Of a stretch of DNA of 32,000 nt, positions 2,572 to 11,183 are shown in pieces. This DNA is from Nostoc punctiforme PCC 73102 (GTDB taxonomy: Bacteria > Cyanobacteriota > Cyanobacteriia > Cyanobacteriales > Nostocaceae): positions 6,720,001 to 6,752,000 of the forward strand of contig NC_010628.1 in NCBI RefSeq assembly GCF_000020025.1. Reading direction: 5' to 3'. The number at the start of each line of letters is the position of its first letter. Position 1 is the first letter of the stretch. Below the pieces are notes generated by a model. It was not told the origin of the DNA. It worked only from the letters and a program-made list of their open reading frames with translations, and ran no database searches. The position numbers were made by a program, and so were the translations under genes.

Positions 2572-2605
2572 AATCTTACCCCGGTTTTGGCAGAAACCAA
2601 AACCA

Positions 2606-2639
2606 CCCCTTCTCATCAATGAGGAGGGGTATTTTATTG
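2606..2639 (+). terminator. Rho-independent terminator after mnmA
   Basis: A 10-bp stem (ccccttctca 2606-2615 with tgaggagggg 2620-2629, one G-U pair), loop tcaa, then tattttatt. Confidence 0.6.
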
Positions 2640-2767
2640 CTAATACTGCGTAGAATTGGCCTTCGACTTTGTATCTCTTACGATACTCATGCTATGATTT
2701 ACGGCACATTCCATGCACAAATCCAGCAAGGAATGTTACAACTTAGAGTTTCAAGGCTTTCTCTGCT

Positions 2768-3913
2768 ATGTCTTTTGACCTTGCCTTGTTTAGCTCCAAA
2801 CTCAGAAGATGCCGAGAGCAATTTGAAAAGTCTCTTGTAGAAGTCACAACAGCCACAGGCATCCCTGAAAACATTCTGGCTGCTCTGGAAAATGGGGAAA
2901 GGCAACCAACAGGTGATGAAGTTTTGATTTTTGCTGACTATTACCTATGTGATTACCAGTTTTTTATTTCTAACGAGCGCGTAGCTTCTTTTGATCAAAC
3001 AGAAACTTTGTTCCGAAGATATGGAGAAGAATTTTCAAAAGAAGACCGATTGGCAGTACAAGAATTTTTATTCTTATGTGAGTGTGAAGATTTTCTGTTA
3101 AAACTGGTTCAAACACATATTTATAAGCCTTTTAGCTTTATTAAGAGAGGTAACTATTACATAGGACATGGAAAAGAGGCGGCAAAGGCACTTAGAAAAC
3201 ATTTAGGGTATGCCTCTAATGCAGTTCGCATGGATGTTTATGAAGATTTTCGTTCTTTGGGGTTTCATATTTTTCGTCGCCAGTTGGGTAACTCAAACAT
3301 CTCTGGTTTATTCATCAAACATCCCACAGCAGGCAAGTGCATATTAGTGAACTACAGCGAAGATATTTATAGGCAGAGATTTACTGCTGCTCATGAATCG
3401 GCTCATGGGATTTTGGATGATGAGCAGGAATTTGTTATTTCTTTGAAAACAGACAAAAAGAATTTAGTTGAAGTAAGAGCTAACAACTTTGCATCCGATT
3501 ATTTAATGCCACCAGAATTTTTACAGAAAATTCCAGATTCTCAAACTTGGACTCCTGAAAAAGCTATTGAATGGGCAAATAAGCTTAAGGTCAGTACAGA
3601 AGCATTAGCTAATGCCTTAAAAAGTGCCAATTTCATATCTGAAAATGTAGAAATACAAATAAAAGCTGTGAGAGTACCAAGAGATTTGAAAGTTGATCCA
3701 GAACTGCCTGAAAGCCTCTCATTCGGTTCTCGCCAACGTCGGGAGAAGCTACTAAAAAGAGGTTTGTCAAATTTCTATGTTGGACTTTGCTTTGACGTGT
3801 ATGAGCAGGGTTTTATTTCAGCAGGTCGAGTAGCAGAAATGCTTCTAGTTAGCAAATATGAATTAACAGAAATAGCAAGTATCTACGGGAGAACTATTAG
3901 GTATGGGGATTGA
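2768..3913 (+). CDS. XRE-family HTH fused to an ImmA/IrrE (COG2856, M78-like) zinc metallopeptidase domain plus a C-terminal extension
   Basis: The N-terminus LRRCREQFEKSLVEVTTATGIPENILAALENGERQPTGDE is HTH_XRE-like. The HEXXH motif is AAHESAHGI (HESAH = 3392..3406), with a downstream E-x-x-AN-x-FA-x-x-x-LMP block (EVRANNFASDYLMP). The last ~120 aa are unassigned. Confidence 0.85.
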   Translation: MSFDLALFSSKLRRCREQFEKSLVEVTTATGIPENILAALENGERQPTGDEVLIFADYYLCDYQFFISNERVASFDQTETLFRRYGEEFSKEDRLAVQEFLFLCECEDFLLKLVQTHIYKPFSFIKRGNYYIGHGKEAAKALRKHLGYASNAVRMDVYEDFRSLGFHIFRRQLGNSNISGLFIKHPTAGKCILVNYSEDIYRQRFTAAHESAHGILDDEQEFVISLKTDKKNLVEVRANNFASDYLMPPEFLQKIPDSQTWTPEKAIEWANKLKVSTEALANALKSANFISENVEIQIKAVRVPRDLKVDPELPESLSFGSRQRREKLLKRGLSNFYVGLCFDVYEQGFISAGRVAEMLLVSKYELTEIASIYGRTIRYGD

Positions 3914-4496
3914 TCCATCAAACTTTCATAAATATAACGTTATAGATACTTGTGCTATTTGGAATATTCTTTCATCTCAACTTCTCTATACAACAGCTAA
4001 CAATGCTGGATGCTTATTCTCTTGTACATATTTTGTTTATTACGAGTGCTTATACAAGCCACGTACAAATCCGAAGCAGGCAGAAATAGAATTGCAAAAT
4101 CGTTTTCGTCAGGAATACGAAAATGGAAAATTCAAATATTATCATTTAACTATTGAAGACCTTCAAGATGTAGAAGTTCTCCAGGGAAGAAAGAAAAAAG
4201 ATAAAGGGGAACTTGCATCTATTGCTTTTGCAAAGAAAACCCGTCAAGCTTTTCTAACAGATGATACAGGAGCTAGAAAACAAGCTGCTAAGAGCATGAA
4301 TAGTAAAATGGTACAGACCACACCTCATTTACTAGCTTGGTTGATATTTATAAACTATTTGAGTGATAGTGACTTGCAACCAATAATCTGTGAACATAAA
4401 AAATCTGATAGACCTCTTGAAAAACACTTCTTAGATGCATACAAAATAGTTTTGGAATATAGATTAATAGCTTTAAGCCCTAAAATAACGGAATAA
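3903..4496 (+). CDS. PIN-like nuclease domain protein (putative toxin/effector)
   Basis: Its ATG lies 11 nt inside the upstream gene (3903 versus stop at 3911-3913). NVIDTCAIWNIL supplies D15. GELASIAFAKKTRQAFLTDDTGARK supplies E103 and D120/D121 in the classic PIN 'D/E-x-x-iAa-A-(n)-l-T-x-D' arrangement. E48 or E61/E63 is a candidate second acidic residue. This is a motif-level call only. Confidence 0.6.
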   Translation: MGIDPSNFHKYNVIDTCAIWNILSSQLLYTTANNAGCLFSCTYFVYYECLYKPRTNPKQAEIELQNRFRQEYENGKFKYYHLTIEDLQDVEVLQGRKKKDKGELASIAFAKKTRQAFLTDDTGARKQAAKSMNSKMVQTTPHLLAWLIFINYLSDSDLQPIICEHKKSDRPLEKHFLDAYKIVLEYRLIALSPKITE

Positions 4497-4501
4497 AATC
4501 A

Positions 4502-5155
4502 TCAAAAACTACTTCTATCTAATGCCTCTTCAAACTCTTTCAAAGCTTGTACGGTTCCTACTTGCCAAGCTTGTTCAACTGTAGCGGCAATAATTTGAGT
4601 TAGAGGGATATTCGGAAAGTTAGGACTGCGATCGGATTCGATGTAATGTCCATCGCTGAGTAAATAAATTCTCAGCTTTTTACTATCGTAAATCCATAGT
4701 TCTGGAACTGCGATCGCTTCGTAAGCATCAAGAGTTGTTTTTGATGTCACATCTGTTTCAATTGCCAAATCAGGAGGCGGATCGTCTGGTTCGAGTTTGC
4801 GACGACCAATCATTCTTTGGTAATTCTGGATGTAAAAGCAAGCATCTGGTTCTACCCCCGCTATATTTTCTCGCTTGAAGGTGGTTGAACCGAAGGGTTC
4901 ATAACTTTTCCCGGCGATCTTCAACAAGATTTTGACAATATCCGAAATTAAGTCCTTTGATTTTTCGTGTTCGGGTAGAGGAAGCATAATTTCTAACGTA
5001 GACTTGCTGTAAGCAACTCGTCGCGATCGCTTTTCGCCCAGTTCTTGCAAAATAGACTCAAATTCCTCCCAACTCATATCCTGGATATTCACTGTACTAC
5101 CAGGCGCTAGCCGCATTTGGCTAACAGGTTTAACAACGGGGGATACAGCAGTCAT
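4502..5155 (-). CDS. Uma2-family (DUF820) PD-(D/E)xK-like endonuclease
   Basis: MSWEEFESI...PLPEHEKSK...EPDACFYIQ...PPDLAIETDVTSKT...YEAIAVPELWIYD is the typical cyanobacterial Uma2 pattern. The ORF-track start at 5167 is a TTG, so I prefer the ATG at 5155. Its stop is only 5 bp from the PIN gene stop (convergent). Confidence 0.85.
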   Translation of the reverse strand: MTAVSPVVKPVSQMRLAPGSTVNIQDMSWEEFESILQELGEKRSRRVAYSKSTLEIMLPLPEHEKSKDLISDIVKILLKIAGKSYEPFGSTTFKRENIAGVEPDACFYIQNYQRMIGRRKLEPDDPPPDLAIETDVTSKTTLDAYEAIAVPELWIYDSKKLRIYLLSDGHYIESDRSPNFPNIPLTQIIAATVEQAWQVGTVQALKEFEEALDRSSF

Positions 5156-5349
5156 AAGCAATTCCAAAGAAAGGAACTATTCTGAAACTTGAAGCTGGAT
5201 TAGCTTTAGCGTAACCTAATCAGATCGCTTAGAGGCTAGTTGCAAAATTTTCCTCCATTCCCTAAACTCTTTTTTTTCTCAGTACCAGCATTTTGATAAG
5301 TTAGTACATAATCTGAAACAATAACAGTAAAAGCAAAGAGGGGATTACG

Positions 5350-6528
5350 TTGAGTCACAATCCAGATGCCATAGCCCCCCACGGTGGACAGTTGGTTAAC
5401 CGTATCGCCACACCAGAGCAAAGAGAAGAGTTTCTCTCAAAAGCTGACTTTTTGCCGCGAGTGCAACTTGACGATCGCGCCGTTTCGGATGTAGAAATGA
5501 TTGCGATCGGTGCTTTTAGTCCACTCACGGGTTTTATGAGCCAAGAAGACTACGATCGCACTGTTACAGAAATGCGACTAGCTAATGGTCTTGTGTGGTC
5601 AATTCCGATTACACTATCGGTCACTGAAGAAGTAGCTTCCCCATTGCAAGAAGGTGGCTTAATCCGTCTGGATAACTCCAGAGGTGAATTTATTGCAGTT
5701 TTGCAACTCACGCAAAAATATAATTACGACAAAACCCGCGAAGCCATTAATGTCTACCGCACTGATGATGTCAAACATCCAGGCGTGCAGGTACTCTATA
5801 GCCAAGGTACTGTACATCTGGCGGGTGATATTTGGCTGTTGCAGCGCGAACCTCATCCCCAGTTTCCCACTTACCAAATAGATCCATCTGCCTCACGGCA
5901 ACTATTTAAAGATAAGGGTTGGAAAACAATCGTTGGTTTCCAAACTCGCAACCCTATCCACCGCGCTCATGAATATATTCAAAAGTGCGCTTTAGAAATT
6001 GTTGATGGTCTATTTTTGCACCCATTAGTTGGGGCAACAAAAGAAGATGATATTGCCGCCGATGTGCGGATGCGTTGCTATGAAATTTTGCTGGAACATT
6101 ACTACCCCTTAGACCGGGTAACTTTGGCAATTAATCCAGCCGCAATGCGCTATGCCGGGCCTCGTGAGGCAATATTCCATGCTTTAGTCCGCAAAAACTA
6201 CGGCTGTACTCACTTTATCGTCGGACGGGATCATGCTGGCGTTGGTGACTATTACGGTACTTACGATGCACAATATATCTTTGATGAATTTGCCCCAGGC
6301 GAATTGGGCATTGTGCCGATGAAATTTGAACACGCTTTCTACTGCACGCGCACTAAGCAGATGGCAACATCTAAAACCAGTCCCAGCAGGCCAGAAGAAC
6401 GTATTCACCTATCGGGGACAAAAGTCCGAGAAATGCTGCGGCGTGGTGAATTACCTCCACCAGAATTTTCTCGTCCAGAGGTAGCAGCAGAGTTGGCACG
6501 GGCAATGCGGATAGAAGTACCTGTTTAG
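5350..6528 (+). CDS. sat: Sulfate adenylyltransferase (ATP sulfurylase)
   Basis: [21 protein letters not shown] and GRDHAGVG motifs. The only in-frame start upstream of the conserved N-terminus is the TTG at 5350. Confidence 0.93.
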
Positions 6529-6650
6529 GGAATTGGGAATTGGGCACAACAGTTCCGTTAGCGGATAGCCAAGGTTTAGCCCGTGCTGAGTGAGGAGTTA
6601 GGAGTTAGGAGTTATGAATTCTCTCCCTGCCCCCTGCTCCCTTGCCCCTC
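6529..6650 (+). repeat. Heptamer repeats plus a ~110-bp dispersed repeat, copy A
   Basis: Begins right after the sat stop codon: (GGGAATT)x2, then ttgggcacaacagttccgttagcggatagccaaggtttagcccgtg, then (GGAGTTA)x3 at 6594-6614, then gaattctc...cccctgctccc. A near-identical element in the same orientation lies at 17911..18006. Confidence 0.75.
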
Positions 6651-6723
6651 CTTTTGTAACTTTACAATACAGAGTTCAGCCCTGTAAGCTGCTAGCTAAT
6701 GGGCTTAGGGCTGATAGCTAATT

Positions 6724-8847
6724 ATGAAACGCCGCACGTTTTTACATAAAATTGGCTCAATACTCGCGGTATTGGGAGTAACGGAAGCTGAGTGGTTGAC
6801 TTTAGGAAATCGCTATTATCAGGCTTTGGCACAACCGAACTCGCGCAAGTTGGCATTGTTAATAGGTATTAACCAATACTCCAAAATCCCAAACCTCAGT
6901 GGTTGTCTGACAGATGTAGAACTGCAAAGAGAACTTTTGATTAACCGCTTTGGTTTTCAAGGGTCAGATATTTTAACCTTAACTGACGAACAAGCCAGCA
7001 GGGAATTCATTGAGGCGGCTTTTGCAGATCATCTGGGCAAACAAGCTAAACCTGGTGATATAACTTTTTTCCACTTTAGCGGTTATGGCACTCGTGTCAA
7101 ATTGGAAACATCGCCAGATACAATGCAAAATGCTCTGGTGACAGCTAATGTAGCTCTTGACTTACAAGATGACAAAATAGTCAATTATATATTAGAAGAA
7201 ACTCTACTGCTATTACTGCGATCGCTCCCTACAGACCGAGTAACAGCAGTATTGGATACTAGCTATGATGCTCCTAACACAGTAATAGGATTAAAAACTC
7301 GTGCCCTTCAGGAGTCGGCAGCAAAGCTAGCAACAGAAGAACTCGACTTTCTCAAACAACTTAAAACTCAGAAGTTATCCAATACTCCGATTGTTTTAGC
7401 AGCTAGCTCAGAACCAAAGCAGCCAGCAAGGGAAGGTCTTTTTTCTGGTTTTAGTGCTGGGTTATTTACCTACGCCTTGACGCAGTATTTGTGGGAATTC
7501 ACGCCAGCCACCAAAATTCAAGTCGCCCTTTCCCATGTGGAAAATTCTTTATATAAATCAGGTAGTAAACAGAAACCAGCGTTATTAAGTAGTCAGAAAA
7601 ATCCAGATGTAACGTCTCTAGTGGCAGACGATATCATTGGTGCAGAAGGTGCGGTGAGTGATATTGAAGAAGATGGTAAAACCGTACATTTATGGTTAGC
7701 AGGATTACCCCCACAAGTACTGCTATACTACGGAGTGAATTCTCGATTTACACTACAAACAAAAGAGCAATTAGTATTGCGATCGCGCGCTGGGTTAACA
7801 GCAAAAGCGCAAATTTCCAAAATTGAAGGTGCAAATCCTCTACAAATCGGGCAACTCGTCCAAGAAGCAGTCCGGGTTTTACCCCGAAATATTAATTTAA
7901 CAATAGCTTTCGATACTGGATTAGAAAGAATTGAGCGGGTAGACGCTACAAGTGCCTTTGCGGGATTTTCCCATGTATCTACTGTAGTCGCAGGTGAAAA
8001 ACCAGCTGATTATGTATTTGCCAAGCTACAGGAAACTCCCAGTCGTTATGGTCTATTTTCTCTTGGTGGCGAGCCAATTCCCAATACCACTGGTGAAGTA
8101 GGAGAAGCAATAAAATTAACTGTGCAAAGGTTAGCGCCAAAATTATCAACCTTACTAGCAGCCAAGTTATGGCGACTCACAGAAAATCAAGGTTCTTCCC
8201 GCTTGCCTCTCAAAGCAACCTTAGAAATAATTAATAATATCTCGCCTCGCGTCGTCATGCAGCGCGAAACAGTGCGAACCTTCAAAGCTGAAACTTCGAT
8301 TAAAAAATCAGCACAGACGCGATTAATCGCGTCTCTCCCCACTCCCATTGTGCCTATCGGTAGTCGAATGCAATATCGAGTGGAAAACCAGAGCGATCAC
8401 CCAGTATATTTAATCTTGCTGGGATTAAACAATAATCATACGGCAGTTGCCTTCTACTCTTGGGAAACCCCCCAAGAACCAAATACTGCGGATACTAAGC
8501 CCATTCTCCAAGAAGTCGTCATCGCCCCGGGTAAAAGCCTCACACTACCCCAAAATACTGCTTCGCAATGGGTGATTTCAGGGCCAGCTTCTGAGTGCGA
8601 ACAACAACTGATTTTTAGTACTACACCCTTTAGCGGAACTCTTTCCGCCTTGAATACTGCTCAATATTCCACAGCCGAAGAAGGGCCGATTGGCCCATTG
8701 TTAAATCCTTTAGACGTTGCACAAGCCTTGTTACAAGACTTGCATAATGCCAGCGCCCTCAAAACTGAGATAAACGGTACAGCCGACTCATATATTTTAG
8801 ATGTGAATAATTGGGCAAGTCTTAGCTTTAGTTTTCAAGTAGTGTAA
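6724..8847 (+). CDS. Pseudo-orthocaspase (peptidase C14-like p20 domain with the catalytic dyad replaced), Tat-type signal, long C-terminal region
   Basis: MKRRTFLHKIGSILAVLGV matches the twin-arginine pattern RR-x-F-L-x-K plus an h-region. The caspase-like blocks are LALLIGINQY, FFHFSGYG (Tyr121, 7084-7086, where His is expected) and AVLDTSYD (Ser180, 7261-7263, where Cys is expected). The C-terminal stretch MQYRVENQSDHPVYLILLGLNNNHTAVAFYSW looks like a DUF4384-type beta domain. Confidence 0.8.
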   Translation: MKRRTFLHKIGSILAVLGVTEAEWLTLGNRYYQALAQPNSRKLALLIGINQYSKIPNLSGCLTDVELQRELLINRFGFQGSDILTLTDEQASREFIEAAFADHLGKQAKPGDITFFHFSGYGTRVKLETSPDTMQNALVTANVALDLQDDKIVNYILEETLLLLLRSLPTDRVTAVLDTSYDAPNTVIGLKTRALQESAAKLATEELDFLKQLKTQKLSNTPIVLAASSEPKQPAREGLFSGFSAGLFTYALTQYLWEFTPATKIQVALSHVENSLYKSGSKQKPALLSSQKNPDVTSLVADDIIGAEGAVSDIEEDGKTVHLWLAGLPPQVLLYYGVNSRFTLQTKEQLVLRSRAGLTAKAQISKIEGANPLQIGQLVQEAVRVLPRNINLTIAFDTGLERIERVDATSAFAGFSHVSTVVAGEKPADYVFAKLQETPSRYGLFSLGGEPIPNTTGEVGEAIKLTVQRLAPKLSTLLAAKLWRLTENQGSSRLPLKATLEIINNISPRVVMQRETVRTFKAETSIKKSAQTRLIASLPTPIVPIGSRMQYRVENQSDHPVYLILLGLNNNHTAVAFYSWETPQEPNTADTKPILQEVVIAPGKSLTLPQNTASQWVISGPASECEQQLIFSTTPFSGTLSALNTAQYSTAEEGPIGPLLNPLDVAQALLQDLHNASALKTEINGTADSYILDVNNWASLSFSFQVV
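8315..8334. repeat. Perfect 20-bp palindrome AGACGCGATTAATCGCGTCT inside the orthocaspase CDS
   Basis: Exact self-complementary 20-mer, read in frame as ..TRLIASL... The same 20-mer is at 21444..21463 and a one-mismatch copy is at 21241..21260, both intergenic. Confidence 0.85.
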
Positions 8848-8914
8848 ACATGGAATTCAGGAATTTAGTTGTGTATATAACTATGGTTCCTGTATTAACA
8901 CTTAATAGAGTTTC

Positions 8915-10030
8915 ATGAAAATCAAGAATCGGGTAGGGTTAGCGTTCTCACTCGTCTTATTATCTGCCAGTATTGCTACCGCCCAACCAAAGCCAACTGA
9001 CTTGCCCAATCCGACAATTTCAACTCAGCAGCAAGACCAACTAGAAAAACTACAACAAGAAAAAGAAATACGCGATCGCGTTCAATCTGAAGTAGATCGG
9101 GCTTTTGGTCATAGCACAACCCTACTCAACATTTTGCTAATCGTATTAACTTTTTTGCCAATCTTAGCGGCGGCTGGTGTTTGGTTGCTACGTCGTAGTG
9201 TAGTTAGTGAATTAGTAACTGAAACAAAGCAACAATTAGAGACAGAAGTCAAAACACAACTAGAAAAAGAAGTCGCGGCAGAGGTAAAAAAACAAACAGA
9301 AGATTTTAAGCAAGAACTAGAAATATTAAAGTCCGACTTTTTAGGGCAATTATCCCAATTAAATAATCTATTTTTAGATGCTCAAAACCAAAAAGAGCTA
9401 ATTCTTCAGCAACTTTCTGGATTAACACCTTCCCCATCATTGACACAAGATTATGTTCACCCAGAAATTCAGCAAAAAATCCAAGAATTAACAACACAAC
9501 TAGAAATACTCAAGGCTGGAAATACTCATTTATTTTTTACTGCTAATGATTATCTTAAACAAGGAGATGCTTTATTTTTTGAAGGTCGATATGAAGATTC
9601 ATTAGCCTGCTATGAACAAGTTATTCAGAGAGAACCTAATTCTTTTCTTGCTTGGATCAATCACGGCTGGGCACTGAGAAGATTAGGGCGCTATCCAAAA
9701 GCATTATTATCATATCAAAAAGCAATTGCTATCCAATCAGATAACTATATAGCTTGGTTTGGGTGCGGTAATTCACTTAGAAAACTACAACGACATGATG
9801 AAGCGATCGCTTCTTATGAGAGAGCCTTAGAACTTCAGCCTGAATTTCATTGGGCTTGGTGCCATAAAGCCCGTTGTCATGCATTAAAAAACGATCGTGA
9901 TTTAGCTATTGAAAGTTTGACACAGGCAATTAAATTAAGAGGCGATCAACATCGAGAGTTAGCAAAAAATAATTCTGACTTTGATTTAATTCGAGCAGAT
10001 GAACGGTTTAAGAAAATACTTGCAGGTTAG
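8915..10030 (+). CDS. Membrane-anchored coiled-coil / TPR-repeat protein
   Basis: Signal-like N-terminus (LAFSLVLLSASIATAQ), a TM helix (LLNILLIVLTFLPILAAAGVWLL), a Q/E/K-rich coiled-coil, then about 4 TPR units (e.g. ALFFEGRYEDSLACYEQVIQREPN, AWINHGWALRRLGRYPKALLSYQKAIAIQ). Only 67 bp downstream of the orthocaspase gene. Confidence 0.8.
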   Translation: MKIKNRVGLAFSLVLLSASIATAQPKPTDLPNPTISTQQQDQLEKLQQEKEIRDRVQSEVDRAFGHSTTLLNILLIVLTFLPILAAAGVWLLRRSVVSELVTETKQQLETEVKTQLEKEVAAEVKKQTEDFKQELEILKSDFLGQLSQLNNLFLDAQNQKELILQQLSGLTPSPSLTQDYVHPEIQQKIQELTTQLEILKAGNTHLFFTANDYLKQGDALFFEGRYEDSLACYEQVIQREPNSFLAWINHGWALRRLGRYPKALLSYQKAIAIQSDNYIAWFGCGNSLRKLQRHDEAIASYERALELQPEFHWAWCHKARCHALKNDRDLAIESLTQAIKLRGDQHRELAKNNSDFDLIRADERFKKILAG

Positions 10031-10340
10031 ATTTTGCGCCTCCCATTTCTTTGTTTTTTTACCGTTCTAGTCTTTGGATGTTACATAAGTGCCTCTGTAC
10101 TGGCTAGCCTTCGAGATAAAACATTTCAAGCAATTTTTGATACCAGTATAAATTAGAGCTTTTTATGACTTTAGTTGTACTCCTATTGATTGGCCTAAGT
10201 GTTCAAATTGAGTATTTTGCTCATAAAGGATGAATTATAAACCAGAAAATATCTCAACTGAATTCAGTCGCCAGCAGGATGAGATTCAGCACAATATTTT
10301 TTACACTCAGAACAGTTATAAACAAACCTGGAAACAGCGT

Positions 10341-11183
10341 ATGCCTCTTCATAAACTTGAACATTTTGATCCAAACTATCGAGAAACTTTTGGTGGAGAC
10401 GACGTTAAATCACTGGTTCTTTATACTGAGGGAGGAGACAGAGTTGGCTCAGTAGCTGATGTTTTAGTTGATGATGATGGTCATTTCCGATATTTAGTTA
10501 TTGACACAAGCGAAGATTTTTCCGGTAAAAAAATCTTATTACCAATTGGTCTTTCCCGGATTGATTATCCTGCAAAACGTGTCTATGTTGATGGGTTAAG
10601 CAAACACCAAGTAGAAGGTTTAGTTGAGTATAAAGAAGACACAATCTTTGATCGTGATTACGAAGAAAAGGTACGTAGTGGATTTCGTTCTCCAACTAGC
10701 GGTGTAACTTACGATCGCAATACATACAATTACCAGACAGAACCAGCTTTATACGGTTTAAATGAGCAATCTCATCAAACTTTCAAACTCTATGAAGAAC
10801 GATTAATTGCTAATAAACACCGGATCAAAACCGGAGAAGTATCAGTTGGTAAACACATTGAAACAGACACTGCACGTGTTACAGTGCCTATTCAAAAAGA
10901 ACGAGTTCTAATTGAGCGAGTTGTGCCAACAGAAGGAGGAAAGATTGTAGATCCCAATGAACTGAAGTTCCAAGAAGGGGAAGTAGCACGTATAGAAGTG
11001 TATGAAGAAACACCAGAAATACATAAAGAAGCATTTGTGCGTGAAGAAGTCCGAGTCAAGAAAGTCGTAGAAAGAGATACAGTGGAAGCACAAGACACCA
11101 TTCGTCGAGAAGAATTAGATGTTGATACTGCGGGTAATTTACATGTGAATGAACATGGCAGTACTACACATGAAACTATTTAA
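10341..11183 (+). CDS. PRC-barrel + DUF2382 (YsnF/AvaK-like) protein, paralog 1
   Basis: The N-terminus from the ATG at 10341 (MPLHKLEHFDPNYRETFGG) parallels paralog 2 (MVLYKLEDFEPNYRDAFEG). The ORF track extends to 10230. PRC-barrel: GSVADVLVDDDGHFRYLVID. DUF2382: LYEERLIANKHRIKTGEVSVGKHIETDTARVTVPIQKERVLIER...REEVRVKK. Confidence 0.8.
   Translation: MPLHKLEHFDPNYRETFGGDDVKSLVLYTEGGDRVGSVADVLVDDDGHFRYLVIDTSEDFSGKKILLPIGLSRIDYPAKRVYVDGLSKHQVEGLVEYKEDTIFDRDYEEKVRSGFRSPTSGVTYDRNTYNYQTEPALYGLNEQSHQTFKLYEERLIANKHRIKTGEVSVGKHIETDTARVTVPIQKERVLIERVVPTEGGKIVDPNELKFQEGEVARIEVYEETPEIHKEAFVREEVRVKKVVERDTVEAQDTIRREELDVDTAGNLHVNEHGSTTHETI

What the first reader, a model, noticed from the sequence alone, without database searches (positions are those of the whole stretch)
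2768..4496. Overlapping XRE-HTH/ImmA-IrrE protease + PIN-like nuclease pair in a low-GC islet: candidate toxin-antitoxin or phage-defence module
Two genes overlap by 11 nt (ATG 3903, upstream stop 3911-3913), which suggests translational coupling.

Gene 1 fuses an XRE helix-turn-helix to an intact HEXXH metalloprotease of the ImmA/IrrE (COG2856) type, followed by an unassigned ~120-aa C-terminal domain.

Gene 2 (197 aa) has the acidic-residue spacing of a PIN nuclease: D15 in NVIDTCAI, E103 in GELASIAFA and D120/D121 in FLTDD.

The pair is clearly AT-richer than the flanking mnmA and sat genes. One sampled 60-nt line was ~28% GC, against ~45% in mnmA. It also contains none of the ~28 HIP1 sites I counted in the window. 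Both points are consistent with an accessory insertion between housekeeping genes.

Xre/COG2856 regulator-protease modules are known partners of toxins and of prophage induction switches. A fused HTH-protease gating a PIN effector could act as a protease-triggered abortive-infection switch. This fusion with this particular PIN-like partner is not a system I can name.
Basis: partly seen in the sequence, partly recalled or inferred. Interest (0 to 1): 0.72.

Follow-up and report, generated by a model that had tools for sequence, protein, structure and literature searches.

The report
HTH-protease antitoxin with PIN toxin
This is a real, mobile two-gene toxin-antitoxin-type module: a DNA-binding zinc protease paired with a PIN-fold nuclease, inserted in a cassette hotspot between two housekeeping genes. 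It is an uncharacterised member of a kind of system already described (RosmerTA-like / Xre-COG2856 with PIN), not a new kind.

Summary
Two + strand genes (2768-3913, 381 aa; 3903-4496, 197 aa) overlap by 11 nt.

- **Gene 1:** XRE HTH plus M78 (ImmA/IrrE) peptidase with invariant H209-E210-x-x-H213 and E235, followed by a 92-aa helical C-terminal domain found only in this family.
- **Gene 2:** a confident PIN/VapC fold with invariant D15, E48, E103 and D120.
- **Co-occurrence:** the pair is obligate. All 77 loci that could be assessed have both genes, and 66 of 67 keep the 11-nt overlap. It occurs in at least six phyla, and both genes have dN/dS of 0.13-0.20.
- **Insertion:** mnmA and sat lie 150-250 nt apart in other cyanobacteria. 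Close Nostoc relatives carry other cargo in the same slot, including ParDE.
- **Composition:** low GC is real but modest. The absence of HIP1 is not significant (P=0.22).

The architecture is already published (Makarova 2009; Matelska 2017; RosmerTA, Millman 2022; NetFlax, Ernits 2023). Gene 1 matches PADLOC RmrA at 9e-19. Gene 2 matches no RmrT model, only the candidate models PDC-M69C and PDC-S70.

The most likely mechanism is inferred, not shown. Gene 1 represses the operon and neutralises the PIN RNase through its C-terminal domain, and activation of the protease releases the toxin. Toxicity and phage defence are untested.

Verdict: new member of a known kind, with modest interest.

The parts
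2605..2640 (+). mnmA intrinsic terminator. It marks the left edge of the variable slot and is context, not part of the module.
   Evidence: The terminator-like hairpin with T tail was found. Homology to Nostoc genomes that lack the pair ends at about 2635-2649.
2668..2698 (+). Promoter-like element: -35 TTGTAT (2669-2674), a 17-nt spacer, and an extended -10 TGCTATGAT (2690-2698). It lies in a roughly 100-nt upstream stretch that travels with the pair.
   Evidence: Read by eye; the consensus scan did not report it. The stretch from about 2668 is conserved in Komarekiella (L050) and in Nodularia (L014), where the pair sits at a different locus. Promoter function is inferred.
2706..2736 (.). Inverted repeat ACATTCCATGC-N9-GCAAGGAATGT, just downstream of the -10. 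Candidate operator for the XRE HTH.
   Evidence: the repeat finder pair I2 is 91% complementary. The arms are conserved in L010, L050 and L014. Anabaena cylindrica has a different palindrome next to its own extended -10. Binding was not tested.
2768..3913 (+). Gene 1, 381 aa: fused regulator, protease and putative antitoxin (RmrA-like).
   Evidence: ORF. Pfam HTH_3 and Peptidase_M78 both score above their cut-offs. PADLOC RmrA 9e-19 and capP 9e-17. There are 1744 homologues, the best 120 being about 381 aa at 59-99% identity. dN/dS is 0.13-0.18.
2801..2953 (+). XRE-type helix-turn-helix (aa 12-62).
   Evidence: Pfam PF01381, 27.2 bits against a cut-off of 23.
3254..3622 (+). M78 (ImmA/IrrE, COG2856) zinc peptidase domain (aa 163-285). 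HEXXH lies at nt 3392-3406 and the third ligand E235 at nt 3470-3472.
   Evidence: Pfam PF06114, 64.5 bits against a cut-off of 22. H209, E210, H213 and E235 are invariant in 66 sequences.
3635..3910 (+). Family-specific C-terminal helical domain (aa 290-381; DPELP...RGLSxFYVxLCFxAY...ISAGRLAEMLL). Proposed toxin-binding or neutralising module.
   Evidence: AF2 gives pLDDT 88 and five helices. There is no significant PDB fold match; only weak HTH/wHTH hits. UPF0175 hits fall below threshold in 16 of 36 members. Only 167 relatives exist among 1.84 billion representatives, mostly in proteins of about 380 aa or shorter pieces that look like fragments of them. RmrA, capP and spr1629 profiles stop at about residue 298. 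Its divergence shows the highest partial correlation with gene 2 divergence.
3887..3913 (+). Coupling junction: an SD-like GGGAG (3887-3891) inside gene 1, the gene 2 ATG at 3903, and the gene 1 TGA at 3911-3913.
   Evidence: The 11-nt overlap is present in 66 of 67 measurable loci. The junction consensus is tAcGG..GGAG.cT....tATGgCgaTTGAtCC over 69 unique sequences.
3903..4496 (+). Gene 2, 197 aa: PIN-fold nuclease and putative toxin.
   Evidence: AF2 gives pLDDT 89.7 and pTM 0.88. Top Foldseek PDB hits are nearly all VapC/PIN chains, with probability 1.00 and TM to target mostly 0.53-0.74. D15, E48, E103 and D120 are invariant. There are weak Pfam PIN-clan hits, PADLOC PDC-S70 in 63 of 64 members and PDC-M69C in 53 of 64. 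dN/dS is 0.17-0.20.
4502..5167 (-). Uma2-family gene, convergent with gene 2 and 5 nt from its stop. It is a neighbour and not part of the module.
   Evidence: Pfam Uma2 5e-17 and PADLOC PDC-S17 2e-36. It is present next to sat in most Nostoc genomes whether or not the pair is there.

Best explanation
The pair is a self-contained, horizontally mobile type II toxin-antitoxin-like module of the RosmerTA / Xre-COG2856 kind.

**Gene 2** is a PIN-fold, Mg-dependent ribonuclease and acts as the toxin or effector.

**Gene 1** is a three-part partner.
1. Its N-terminal XRE HTH represses the operon. The candidate operator is the inverted repeat at 2706-2736.
2. Its family-specific C-terminal helical domain binds and neutralises the PIN protein.
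3. Its M78 zinc peptidase is the sensor or switch. When activated, it cleaves gene 1 protein (in cis or between subunits). By analogy with CapP, IrrE and ImmA, the activating cue could be single-stranded DNA, DNA damage or a phage cue. Cleavage frees the nuclease, which halts growth and so gives addiction or abortive infection.

The conserved 11-nt overlap with an internal SD-like GGAG couples translation of the two proteins.

**Shown here:** the domains, the fold, the intact active sites, obligate co-occurrence, purifying selection, mobility and the insertion site.

**Inferred:** toxicity, which domain neutralises, the substrate and trigger of the protease, the operator, and any anti-phage role.
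For: - **Domains and active sites:**
- **PIN fold:**
- **Obligate pairing:** all 77 assessable metagenome and viral loci have both genes, and 66 of 67 have the 11-nt overlap. So does every locus from direct look-ups.
- **Coupling signal:** the junction consensus has an SD-like GGAG.
- **Selection:** dN/dS is 0.13-0.20 for both genes.
- **Mobility:** the pair occurs in Cyanobacteria, Planctomycetes, Syntrophobacteria, Acidobacteria, Chloroflexota and Verrucomicrobia at 50-60% identity or more. Flanks differ between loci.
- **Insertion site:** there is an empty mnmA-sat site, and alternative TA cargo (ParD/ParE) occupies the same slot in close relatives.
- **C-terminal domain:** it is unique to this family, lies outside the RmrA, capP and spr1629 profiles, and co-varies most with gene 2. 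Its partial r is 0.42 and it ranks top in 446 of 500 half-samples. One 551-aa protein fuses gene 1 and gene 2 (P0309).
- **Literature:** deletion of rmrA could not be transformed, possibly because of toxicity, and RosmerTA defends against phage (bioRxiv 10.1101/2022.05.11.491447). ImmA-type antitoxins associate with PIN toxins, and hub antitoxin domains are accompanied by dedicated neutralisation domains (PMC10440598). CapP is a ssDNA-activated M78 peptidase that cleaves an HTH repressor (bioRxiv 10.1101/2022.04.27.489752 and 10.64898/2026.05.16.725639).
Against: - No experiment or co-fold supports toxicity, neutralisation or self-cleavage.
- Gene 2 matches no RmrT model and reaches no Pfam family cut-off.
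- The identity of the C-terminal domain is unresolved. UPF0175 hits fall below threshold and there is no significant fold match.
- The mirror-tree signal may partly reflect the C-terminal domain being the fastest-evolving segment.
- Gene 1 lacks the GAF domain that, together with the peptidase domain, forms the ssDNA-binding groove in CapP and IrrE, so the trigger may differ.
- The pair is essentially absent from 50,697 phage and 72,556 plasmid records. Only one of about ten well-sampled contexts is a clear defence island. A defence role is therefore not indicated by context.
- The promoter was read by eye; the scan did not call it.
Confidence: 0.7

Rival explanations
1. The pair is a pure addiction or stabilisation module. 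It behaves as a selfish TA cassette that persists in a recombination hotspot and has no role in phage defence. The protease only tunes antitoxin turnover or autoregulation.
For: - The slot between mnmA and sat holds other classical TA pairs (ParD/ParE) in sister strains.
- In Nodularia the pair sits beside two VapBC-like pairs.
- Most flanks are housekeeping genes.
- The pair is absent from the phage collection.
Against: - Related Zn-peptidase antitoxin systems (RosmerTA) do defend against phage (bioRxiv 10.1101/2022.05.11.491447; PMC10440598).
- One locus lies inside a DUF1156/DUF499/SNF2/Schlafen-type island.
- The protease active site is invariant across phyla, which suggests a signalling role rather than a dispensable one.
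Confidence: 0.3
2. The roles follow the original 2009 prediction. The COG2856 protease is the toxic component, or it acts on a separate Xre repressor elsewhere. The PIN protein is then an accessory or regulatory partner, as in a 'three-component' system.
For: Makarova et al. 2009 listed COG2856 as the predicted toxin with Xre as antitoxin, and proposed three-component circuits with PIN or RelE (PMC2701414). Matelska et al. 2017 repeated the three-component idea (PMC5499597).
Against: - No third gene is conserved next to the pair in any locus.
- HTH and protease are fused in one chain.
- In RosmerTA the Zn-peptidase protein is the antitoxin (bioRxiv 10.1101/2022.05.11.491447; PMC10440598).
- The PIN catalytic residues are invariant.
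Confidence: 0.07
3. The pair is an ImmR/ImmA- or CapH/CapP-type transcriptional switch. It would control a neighbouring mobile element or immune operon rather than form a TA pair.
For: Gene 1 hits capP at 9e-17 and phage 'transcriptional regulator' phrog_2439 at 5.5e-29. M78 plus HTH pairs regulate ICEs, prophages and CBASS (bioRxiv 10.1101/2022.04.27.489752).
Against: - There is no integrase, prophage or conserved downstream operon. The only constant neighbour is gene 2, and the flanks differ everywhere.
- The window has no tRNA, and the module has no terminal repeats.
- The pair moves as a unit of about 1.85 kb.
Confidence: 0.05

Closest known systems
RosmerTA (RmrT/RmrA) anti-phage toxin-antitoxin system
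   Same: The partner protein has an XRE HTH plus M78 Zn-peptidase. Gene 1 matches 16 PADLOC RmrA models, the best at 9e-19 over residues 9-298. The module has two genes, and toxins are known to vary between RosmerTA systems.
   Different: Gene 2 and its 63 relatives hit no RmrT model. The experimentally tested Gordonia phage Kita RmrT depolarises membranes (PMC10440598), whereas here the effector is a PIN nuclease. Gene 1's C-terminal 92 aa lie outside the RmrA profiles.
Predicted Xre-COG2856(DUF955) + PIN 'three-component' TA systems (Makarova 2009, PMC2701414; Matelska 2017, PMC5499597)
   Same: The domain content is identical: an HTH fused to a COG2856 peptidase, in an operon with a PIN-like protein. 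One described case has HTH-DUF955 upstream of a COG2405 PIN in Geobacillus.
   Different: Those are bioinformatic predictions with no mechanism, and they often include a separate Xre gene. Here the system is strictly two genes, with a conserved 11-nt overlap and an extra C-terminal domain that neither paper mentions.
PADLOC candidate systems PDC-M69 (B, C) and PDC-S70
   Same: Gene 1 hits PDC-M69B at 4e-8 and gene 2 hits PDC-M69C at 8e-6. Of the gene 2 relatives, 63 of 64 hit PDC-S70 and 53 of 64 hit PDC-M69C.
   Different: The matches are weak and partial, covering residues 76-135 of gene 2. These are candidate entries, and no paper in the library mentions PDC-M69. I could not determine their composition or any test of function.
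VapBC, especially UPF0175 (COG2886) antitoxin with COG2405/DUF3368 PIN toxin
   Same: Gene 2 has a PIN/VapC fold and the catalytic acidic residues. Many gene 2 homologues carry weak precomputed PF11848 hits. The gene 1 C-terminus gives recurrent UPF0175 hits below threshold (16 of 36). UPF0175 is reported only next to COG2405 (PMC5499597).
   Different: No hit reaches a Pfam cut-off. A fresh scan of 64 gene 2 relatives finds PF01850 and PF20698 weakly, but not PF11848. The antitoxin here is a 381-aa multidomain protease, not a small DNA-binding protein.
[quoted passage not shown]
   Same: All have an M78 peptidase with the HExxH...E zinc site acting on an XRE HTH partner. Gene 1 hits capP at 9e-17. 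They are the source of the proposed trigger logic.
   Different: In those systems the protease and repressor are separate proteins, CapP and IrrE carry a GAF domain, and the output is transcription of other genes. Here the HTH and protease are fused, no GAF domain was detected, and the only constant partner is a nuclease.

Membership tests
RosmerTA | RmrA-type partner with an XRE HTH and an M78 Zn-peptidase in one protein | tested here: met
   PADLOC RmrA 9e-19 over residues 9-298. Pfam HTH_3 and Peptidase_M78 both score above their cut-offs.
RosmerTA | Adjacent toxin belonging to a catalogued RmrT family | tested here: not met
   Gene 2 has no RmrT hit at E<=1. None of the 64 family members has one at E<=0.01.
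RosmerTA | Toxin is lethal without the antitoxin, and the system protects against phage | not testable with these tools
   Needs expression and plaque assays.
PIN domain superfamily (VapC group) | PIN alpha/beta/alpha fold | tested here: met
   The AF2 model has pLDDT 89.7. Top Foldseek PDB hits are almost all VapC/PIN chains, with probability 1.00, TM to target mostly 0.53-0.74 and best E 2.5e-3.
PIN domain superfamily (VapC group) | Conserved acidic catalytic residues (D after beta1, E in a helix, D/E-xx-IAA helix, TxD motif) | tested here: met
   D15, E48, E103, T119 and D120 are invariant in 64 sequences.
PIN domain superfamily (VapC group) | Scores above the curated cut-off of a Pfam PIN-clan family | tested here: not met
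   The window protein has no Pfam hit. Relatives give only weak hits to PF20698 (28 of 64) and PF01850 (24 of 64), the best at about 4e-4.
Peptidase M78 (ImmA/IrrE, COG2856) | PF06114 above its cut-off, with HExxH and a downstream Glu ligand | tested here: met
   64.5 bits against a cut-off of 22. H209, E210, H213 and E235 are invariant.
UPF0175 (PF03683) antitoxin domain | C-terminal domain of gene 1 scores as UPF0175 | tested here: inconclusive
   Scores 17.3 bits against a cut-off of 27.9. UPF0175 is the only recurrent family (16 of 36 members, best 3.7e-4), and the hits cover only the HTH core. Divergent relatives give no bridging hits. There is no significant fold match.
DUF3368 / COG2405 PIN subfamily | Gene 2 scores as PF11848 | tested here: inconclusive
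   Most homologues carry precomputed PF11848 hits flagged weak or faint. The current scan finds none at E<=0.1. PDB 2mdt (SSO1118) ranks only 39th in the fold search.
Type II toxin-antitoxin module (generic) | Two small co-oriented overlapping genes, one with a DNA-binding domain; patchy, horizontally mobile distribution | tested here: met
   The 11-nt overlap is conserved in 66 of 67 loci. The pair occurs in six or more phyla with unrelated flanks. It is present or absent among close Nostoc relatives.
Type II toxin-antitoxin module (generic) | Direct protein-protein neutralisation of the toxin by the antitoxin | not testable with these tools
The only indirect hints are the co-variation result and one fusion protein.
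CapH/CapP-type regulator | Separate HTH repressor and an M78 peptidase with HTH and GAF domains, controlling a neighbouring immune operon | tested here: not met
   The HTH is fused. The capP match covers only the peptidase, residues 137-281. No conserved downstream operon exists.

The most novel reading that the evidence does not exclude
Gene 1 is a self-cleaving, 'single-chain' sensor-antitoxin. Its family-specific C-terminal domain, possibly a diverged UPF0175-type module, caps the PIN active site. The in-cis M78 protease cuts this domain off when it senses a phage or DNA-damage cue, perhaps gated by the conserved cysteines C104, C106 and C341. That would turn a VapBC-like pair into a protease-triggered abortive-infection switch. 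If so, it would give a direct mechanistic model for how RmrA-type antitoxins sense infection.
Probability: 0.25. Interest if true: 0.6.

Novelty: new member of a known kind. Interest (0 to 1): 0.3.

Why it matters
How fused HTH-Zn-peptidase antitoxins (RmrA and its relatives) sense a trigger and release their toxins is not addressed in the papers I could find.

This family is compact and very conserved: about 381 aa plus about 197 aa, at roughly 50% identity or more across at least six phyla, with an invariant protease site, an invariant nuclease site and a fixed 11-nt overlap. The effector has a well-understood fold. That makes it a clean candidate model for dissecting the switch.

The locus also documents a TA-cassette exchange hotspot between mnmA and sat in Nostoc. 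That is useful for studies of strain-level variation in lichen-associated and free-living Nostoc.

None of this changes current understanding; it fills in one member of a known class.

Tried and rejected
**Searches that led nowhere**
- Sequence profile searches against PDB gave nothing for gene 2 and only chance-level hits for the C-terminal domain.
- tblastn of gene 2 and of the C-terminal domain against plasmids and phages gave no real match.
- Profile searches of all ORFs in the fetched loci found no canonical DUF3368 or stand-alone C-terminal-like genes.
- Pfam scans of the most divergent C-terminal relatives gave no bridge to UPF0175.
- The PADLOC model PDLC05076 (PDC-S70) was hit by only 6 of 36 C-terminal sequences.
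- The window has no Rfam family and no tRNA.
- No direct or inverted repeats flank the module, so no transposon-like ends were found.
- No paper mentions PDC-M69, and PMC9670203 is not held.

**Readings considered and rejected**
- An ICE or prophage ImmR/ImmA switch: there are no element genes, and the only constant neighbour is gene 2.
- The protease as toxin: the HTH and protease are fused, and RmrA precedent makes this protein the antitoxin.
- HIP1 depletion as evidence of foreign origin: P=0.22.
- Uma2 as a third component: it is present in strains that lack the pair.

Model coordinates are not exposed, so active-site geometry and interfaces could not be examined.
Full report
**1. Observation**

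The window has two + strand ORFs, at 2768..3913 (381 aa) and 3903..4496 (197 aa). They overlap by 11 nt, ATGGGGATTGA.

Gene 1 scores above the Pfam cut-offs for HTH_3 (aa 12-62) and Peptidase_M78 (aa 163-285). It carries H209-E210-S-A-H213.

Gene 2 has no direct Pfam hit.

The pair is 36.0% GC, against 45.8% for mnmA, 47.1% for sat and 42.2% for the window. That is the 2nd percentile of same-size windows. Gene 2 is the most AT-rich of 20 long ORFs (GC3 0.233), although ORFs at 8909-11180 come close.

I count the same 28 HIP1 sites, with none in the pair. At that density, zero sites in 1729 nt has P=0.22, so HIP1 says nothing.

**2. Gene 2 is a PIN-fold protein with an intact site**

There are 459 homologues. 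Many of the 120 listed carry weak precomputed PF11848 (DUF3368) hits.

In an alignment of 64 homologues, D15, E48, E103, T119 and D120 are invariant. This matches the PIN pattern as I recall it: D after beta1, E in a helix, an acidic residue at the start of the xxIAxA helix, and TxD.

AlphaFold2 with this alignment gives pLDDT 89.7 and pTM 0.88. Top Foldseek matches against PDB are almost all VapC/PIN chains. Probability is 1.00 and TM to target is mostly 0.53-0.74, but E-values are only about 3e-3 and identity is 6-17%.

Scanning the 64 members individually gives only weak hits to PIN-clan families: PF20698 in 28 and PF01850 in 24. Against PADLOC, 63 of 64 hit PDC-S70, 53 of 64 hit PDC-M69C, and none hit RmrT.

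So gene 2 belongs to the PIN superfamily by fold and motifs. Its subfamily is unassigned.

**3. Gene 1**

PADLOC matches 16 RmrA (RosmerTA antitoxin) models. The best is 9e-19 over residues 9-298. It also matches capP (9e-17, peptidase only) and PDC-M69B. NCBIfam gives the spr1629 repressor/antitoxin family far below its cut-off. PHROGs gives a phage 'transcriptional regulator' family at 5.5e-29.

The 120 best homologues are almost all about 381 aa, at 59-99% identity. They come from Cyanobacteria, Planctomycetes, Syntrophobacteria, Korobacteraceae, Chloroflexota and Verrucomicrobiales. H209, E210, H213 and E235 are invariant, so the protease is very likely active.

**4. The C-terminal domain (290-381)**

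- It is predicted with confidence as five helices (pLDDT 88).
- It has no significant PDB fold match. The weak hits are HTH/wHTH domains.
- Individually scanned, 16 of 36 members hit UPF0175 below threshold (best 3.7e-4, HTH core only). No other family recurs.
- A profile search of 1.84 billion representative proteins finds only 167 relatives. Most are about 380 aa, or shorter pieces that look like fragments of such proteins.
- The RmrA, capP and spr1629 profiles all stop aligning near residue 298.

The domain is therefore specific to this gene 1 family.

UPF0175 is reported only next to COG2405 PIN toxins (PMC5499597), which makes the weak hit suggestive. Attempts to bridge the families failed, so I leave it as inconclusive.

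**5. Co-occurrence**

Every locus recovered through a gene 2 homologue has a gene 1 homologue immediately upstream.

Among 81 metagenome and viral loci, 77 have gene 1. The other 4 have gene 2 within 108 nt of the contig end, so gene 1 could not be seen. The overlap is 11 nt in 66 of 67 measurable cases.

The junction consensus over 69 unique sequences is tAcGG..GGAG.cT....tATGgCgaTTGAtCC. It places an SD-like GGAG about 10 nt before the gene 2 ATG, inside the conserved YGR codons of gene 1. This supports translational coupling.

dN/dS is 0.13-0.20 for both genes.

Over 63 distinct pairs, divergence of the C-terminal domain has the highest correlation with gene 2 divergence. Its partial r is 0.42, against 0.29 for the HTH, 0.20 for the middle segment and 0.09 for M78. 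It ranks top in 446 of 500 half-samples, and 0 of 500 label permutations reach the observed value. This is a hint only, because the C-terminal domain is also the fastest-evolving segment.

One 551-aa protein (P0309) fuses gene 1 to the PIN domain. It could be a Rosetta-stone case or an assembly artefact.

**6. The locus**

I anchored on sat and fetched 80 species-representative genomes.

- **Empty site:** mnmA and sat are adjacent with gaps of 151-250 nt in Scytonema, Brasilonema, Anabaenopsis and a Chroococcidiopsidaceae genome.
- **Expanded gap:** in Nostoc the gap is 1.1-4.3 kb. A Uma2 gene sits next to sat in most of these genomes.
- **Rarity:** the pair occurs in only 2 of the roughly 30 loci that show both flanks, Komarekiella and Anabaena cylindrica UHCC 0172.
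- **Boundaries:** against Nostoc genomes that lack the pair, homology stops just after the mnmA terminator (about 2635-2649) and resumes at 4501, the Uma2 stop.
- **Alternative cargo:** the same slot elsewhere holds a ParD/ParE pair (Pfam-confirmed), an unknown overlapping pair of 117 and 136 aa, an HNH-like protein and others.
- **Different locus:** in Nodularia CChRGM 3473 the pair sits elsewhere, beside two VapBC-like pairs. It keeps the same roughly 100 nt of upstream DNA. That stretch contains an extended -10 (TGCTATGAT, 2690-2698) and the inverted repeat at 2706-2736.

No terminal repeats, tRNA or Rfam element mark the insertion. Exchange by recombination through the conserved flanks is the likely route; this is inference.

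Broader contexts are mixed. They include housekeeping genes (L007, L177), transposases (L178) and one clear defence island with DUF1156/DUF499, an SNF2 helicase and a Schlafen-like ATPase (L179).

The pair is essentially absent from plasmid and phage collections. It occurs on one IMG/VR contig.

**7. Mechanism**

Shown here: a fused HTH, active-looking M78 peptidase and private C-terminal domain, always translationally coupled to a PIN protein with an intact catalytic set, moving as a unit of about 1.85 kb under purifying selection.

Inferred:
1. Gene 1 autoregulates through the repeat.
2. Gene 1 holds the PIN RNase inactive through its C-terminal domain.
3. Protease activation releases the toxin.

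The inference rests on four published points.
- In RosmerTA the Zn-peptidase protein is the antitoxin, and a strain deleted for rmrA could not be obtained (bioRxiv 10.1101/2022.05.11.491447).
- NetFlax finds that the ImmA antitoxin node pairs with PIN domains. It also finds that hub antitoxin domains usually come with separate neutralisation domains (PMC10440598).
- CapP, a related M78 peptidase, is switched on by single-stranded DNA and cleaves an XRE HTH partner (bioRxiv 10.1101/2022.04.27.489752; 10.64898/2026.05.16.725639).
- The related M78 peptidase IrrE likewise cleaves an XRE repressor, DdrO (PMC6868357), and ssDNA binding stimulates it (PMC10904395).

Gene 1 lacks the GAF domain of CapP and IrrE, so the cue may differ.

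Rival readings are scored in their own section: pure addiction cassette, protease as toxin or three-component circuit, and a regulator of other genes.

**8. Comparison and novelty**

The architecture is in the literature.
- Makarova et al. 2009 counted Xre-fused COG2856 genes in operons with PIN and RelE toxins (PMC2701414).
- Matelska et al. 2017 listed COG2405, DUF4411, PIN_14, PIN_20 and PIN_26 co-transcribed with HTH and DUF955. They gave an HTH-DUF955 plus COG2405 example (PMC5499597).

This family fails the RmrT criterion for RosmerTA and reaches no PIN-family cut-off. I therefore file it as RosmerTA-like, that is, a new and uncharacterised member of a known kind.

The possibly new detail is the private C-terminal domain as the neutraliser. 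That claim is untested.

Noticed in passing
window 2572-5349; loci L016-L065: The mnmA-sat intergenic region is a cassette-exchange hotspot in Nostoc. The gap is 151-250 nt in Scytonema, Brasilonema, Anabaenopsis and Chroococcidiopsidaceae, but 1.1-4.3 kb in Nostoc. Cargo alternates between this pair, ParD/ParE, an HNH-like protein and other small ORFs.
   Followed up: partly
L040 about 6146-6890; also L018 and L044: An unknown overlapping pair of 117 aa and 136 aa (MGYMPE..., MESMMTKAIL...) occupies the same slot in several Nostoc genomes. It has no Pfam hit and may be another uncharacterised TA-like pair.
   Followed up: partly
window 4502-5167 (-): A Uma2-family (PF05685) gene hits the PADLOC candidate PDC-S17 at 2e-36. 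It converges on gene 2 with only 5 nt between the stop codons. It is nearly constant next to sat in Nostoc, whatever the cargo.
   Followed up: partly
protein P0309 (551 aa): A single chain combines HTH, M78, the C-terminal domain and the PIN domain, with about 25 residues missing at the junction. It is either a natural fusion, which would be a Rosetta-stone hint of interaction, or a frameshift or assembly artefact.
   Followed up: no
L179 1-16618: In one metagenome contig the pair, plus a 295-aa ORF, sits between a 118-aa DUF1156 fragment and a full DUF1156-DUF499 locus. An HTH-SNF2 helicase and a Schlafen/AlbA_2 protein are nearby, so it looks like an insertion into a defence island.
   Followed up: no
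window 3077-3085, 3338-3340 and 3788-3790 (gene 1 C104, C106, C191, C341): Gene 1 has conserved cysteines: the FLCECE motif between the HTH and the peptidase, C191, and C341 (invariant in the 36-sequence C-terminal alignment). CapP uses a 'cysteine switch' on its zinc site (bioRxiv 10.64898/2026.05.16.725639). The analogy is untested.
   Followed up: no
window 8909-11180: Two further ORFs (373 aa and 318 aa) are nearly as AT-rich as the pair, with GC 0.37-0.38 and GC3 0.24. A 300-nt stretch near 9300-9600 falls to 31% GC. This may be another accessory segment.
   Followed up: no
window 6724-8847: The large ORF downstream of sat is a Peptidase_C14 (caspase-like) protein, according to the annotation of the identical locus.
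   Followed up: no
L031 (CAZZZY010000098.1): A contig binned as 'uncultured Acetobacteraceae bacterium' carries a sat gene 95% identical to the Nostoc one. It is probably a mis-binned cyanobiont contig from a lichen metagenome.
   Followed up: no
L014 3138-4620: In Nodularia CChRGM 3473 the pair lies next to two small PIN-containing pairs that look like VapBC, forming a local TA cluster.
   Followed up: no
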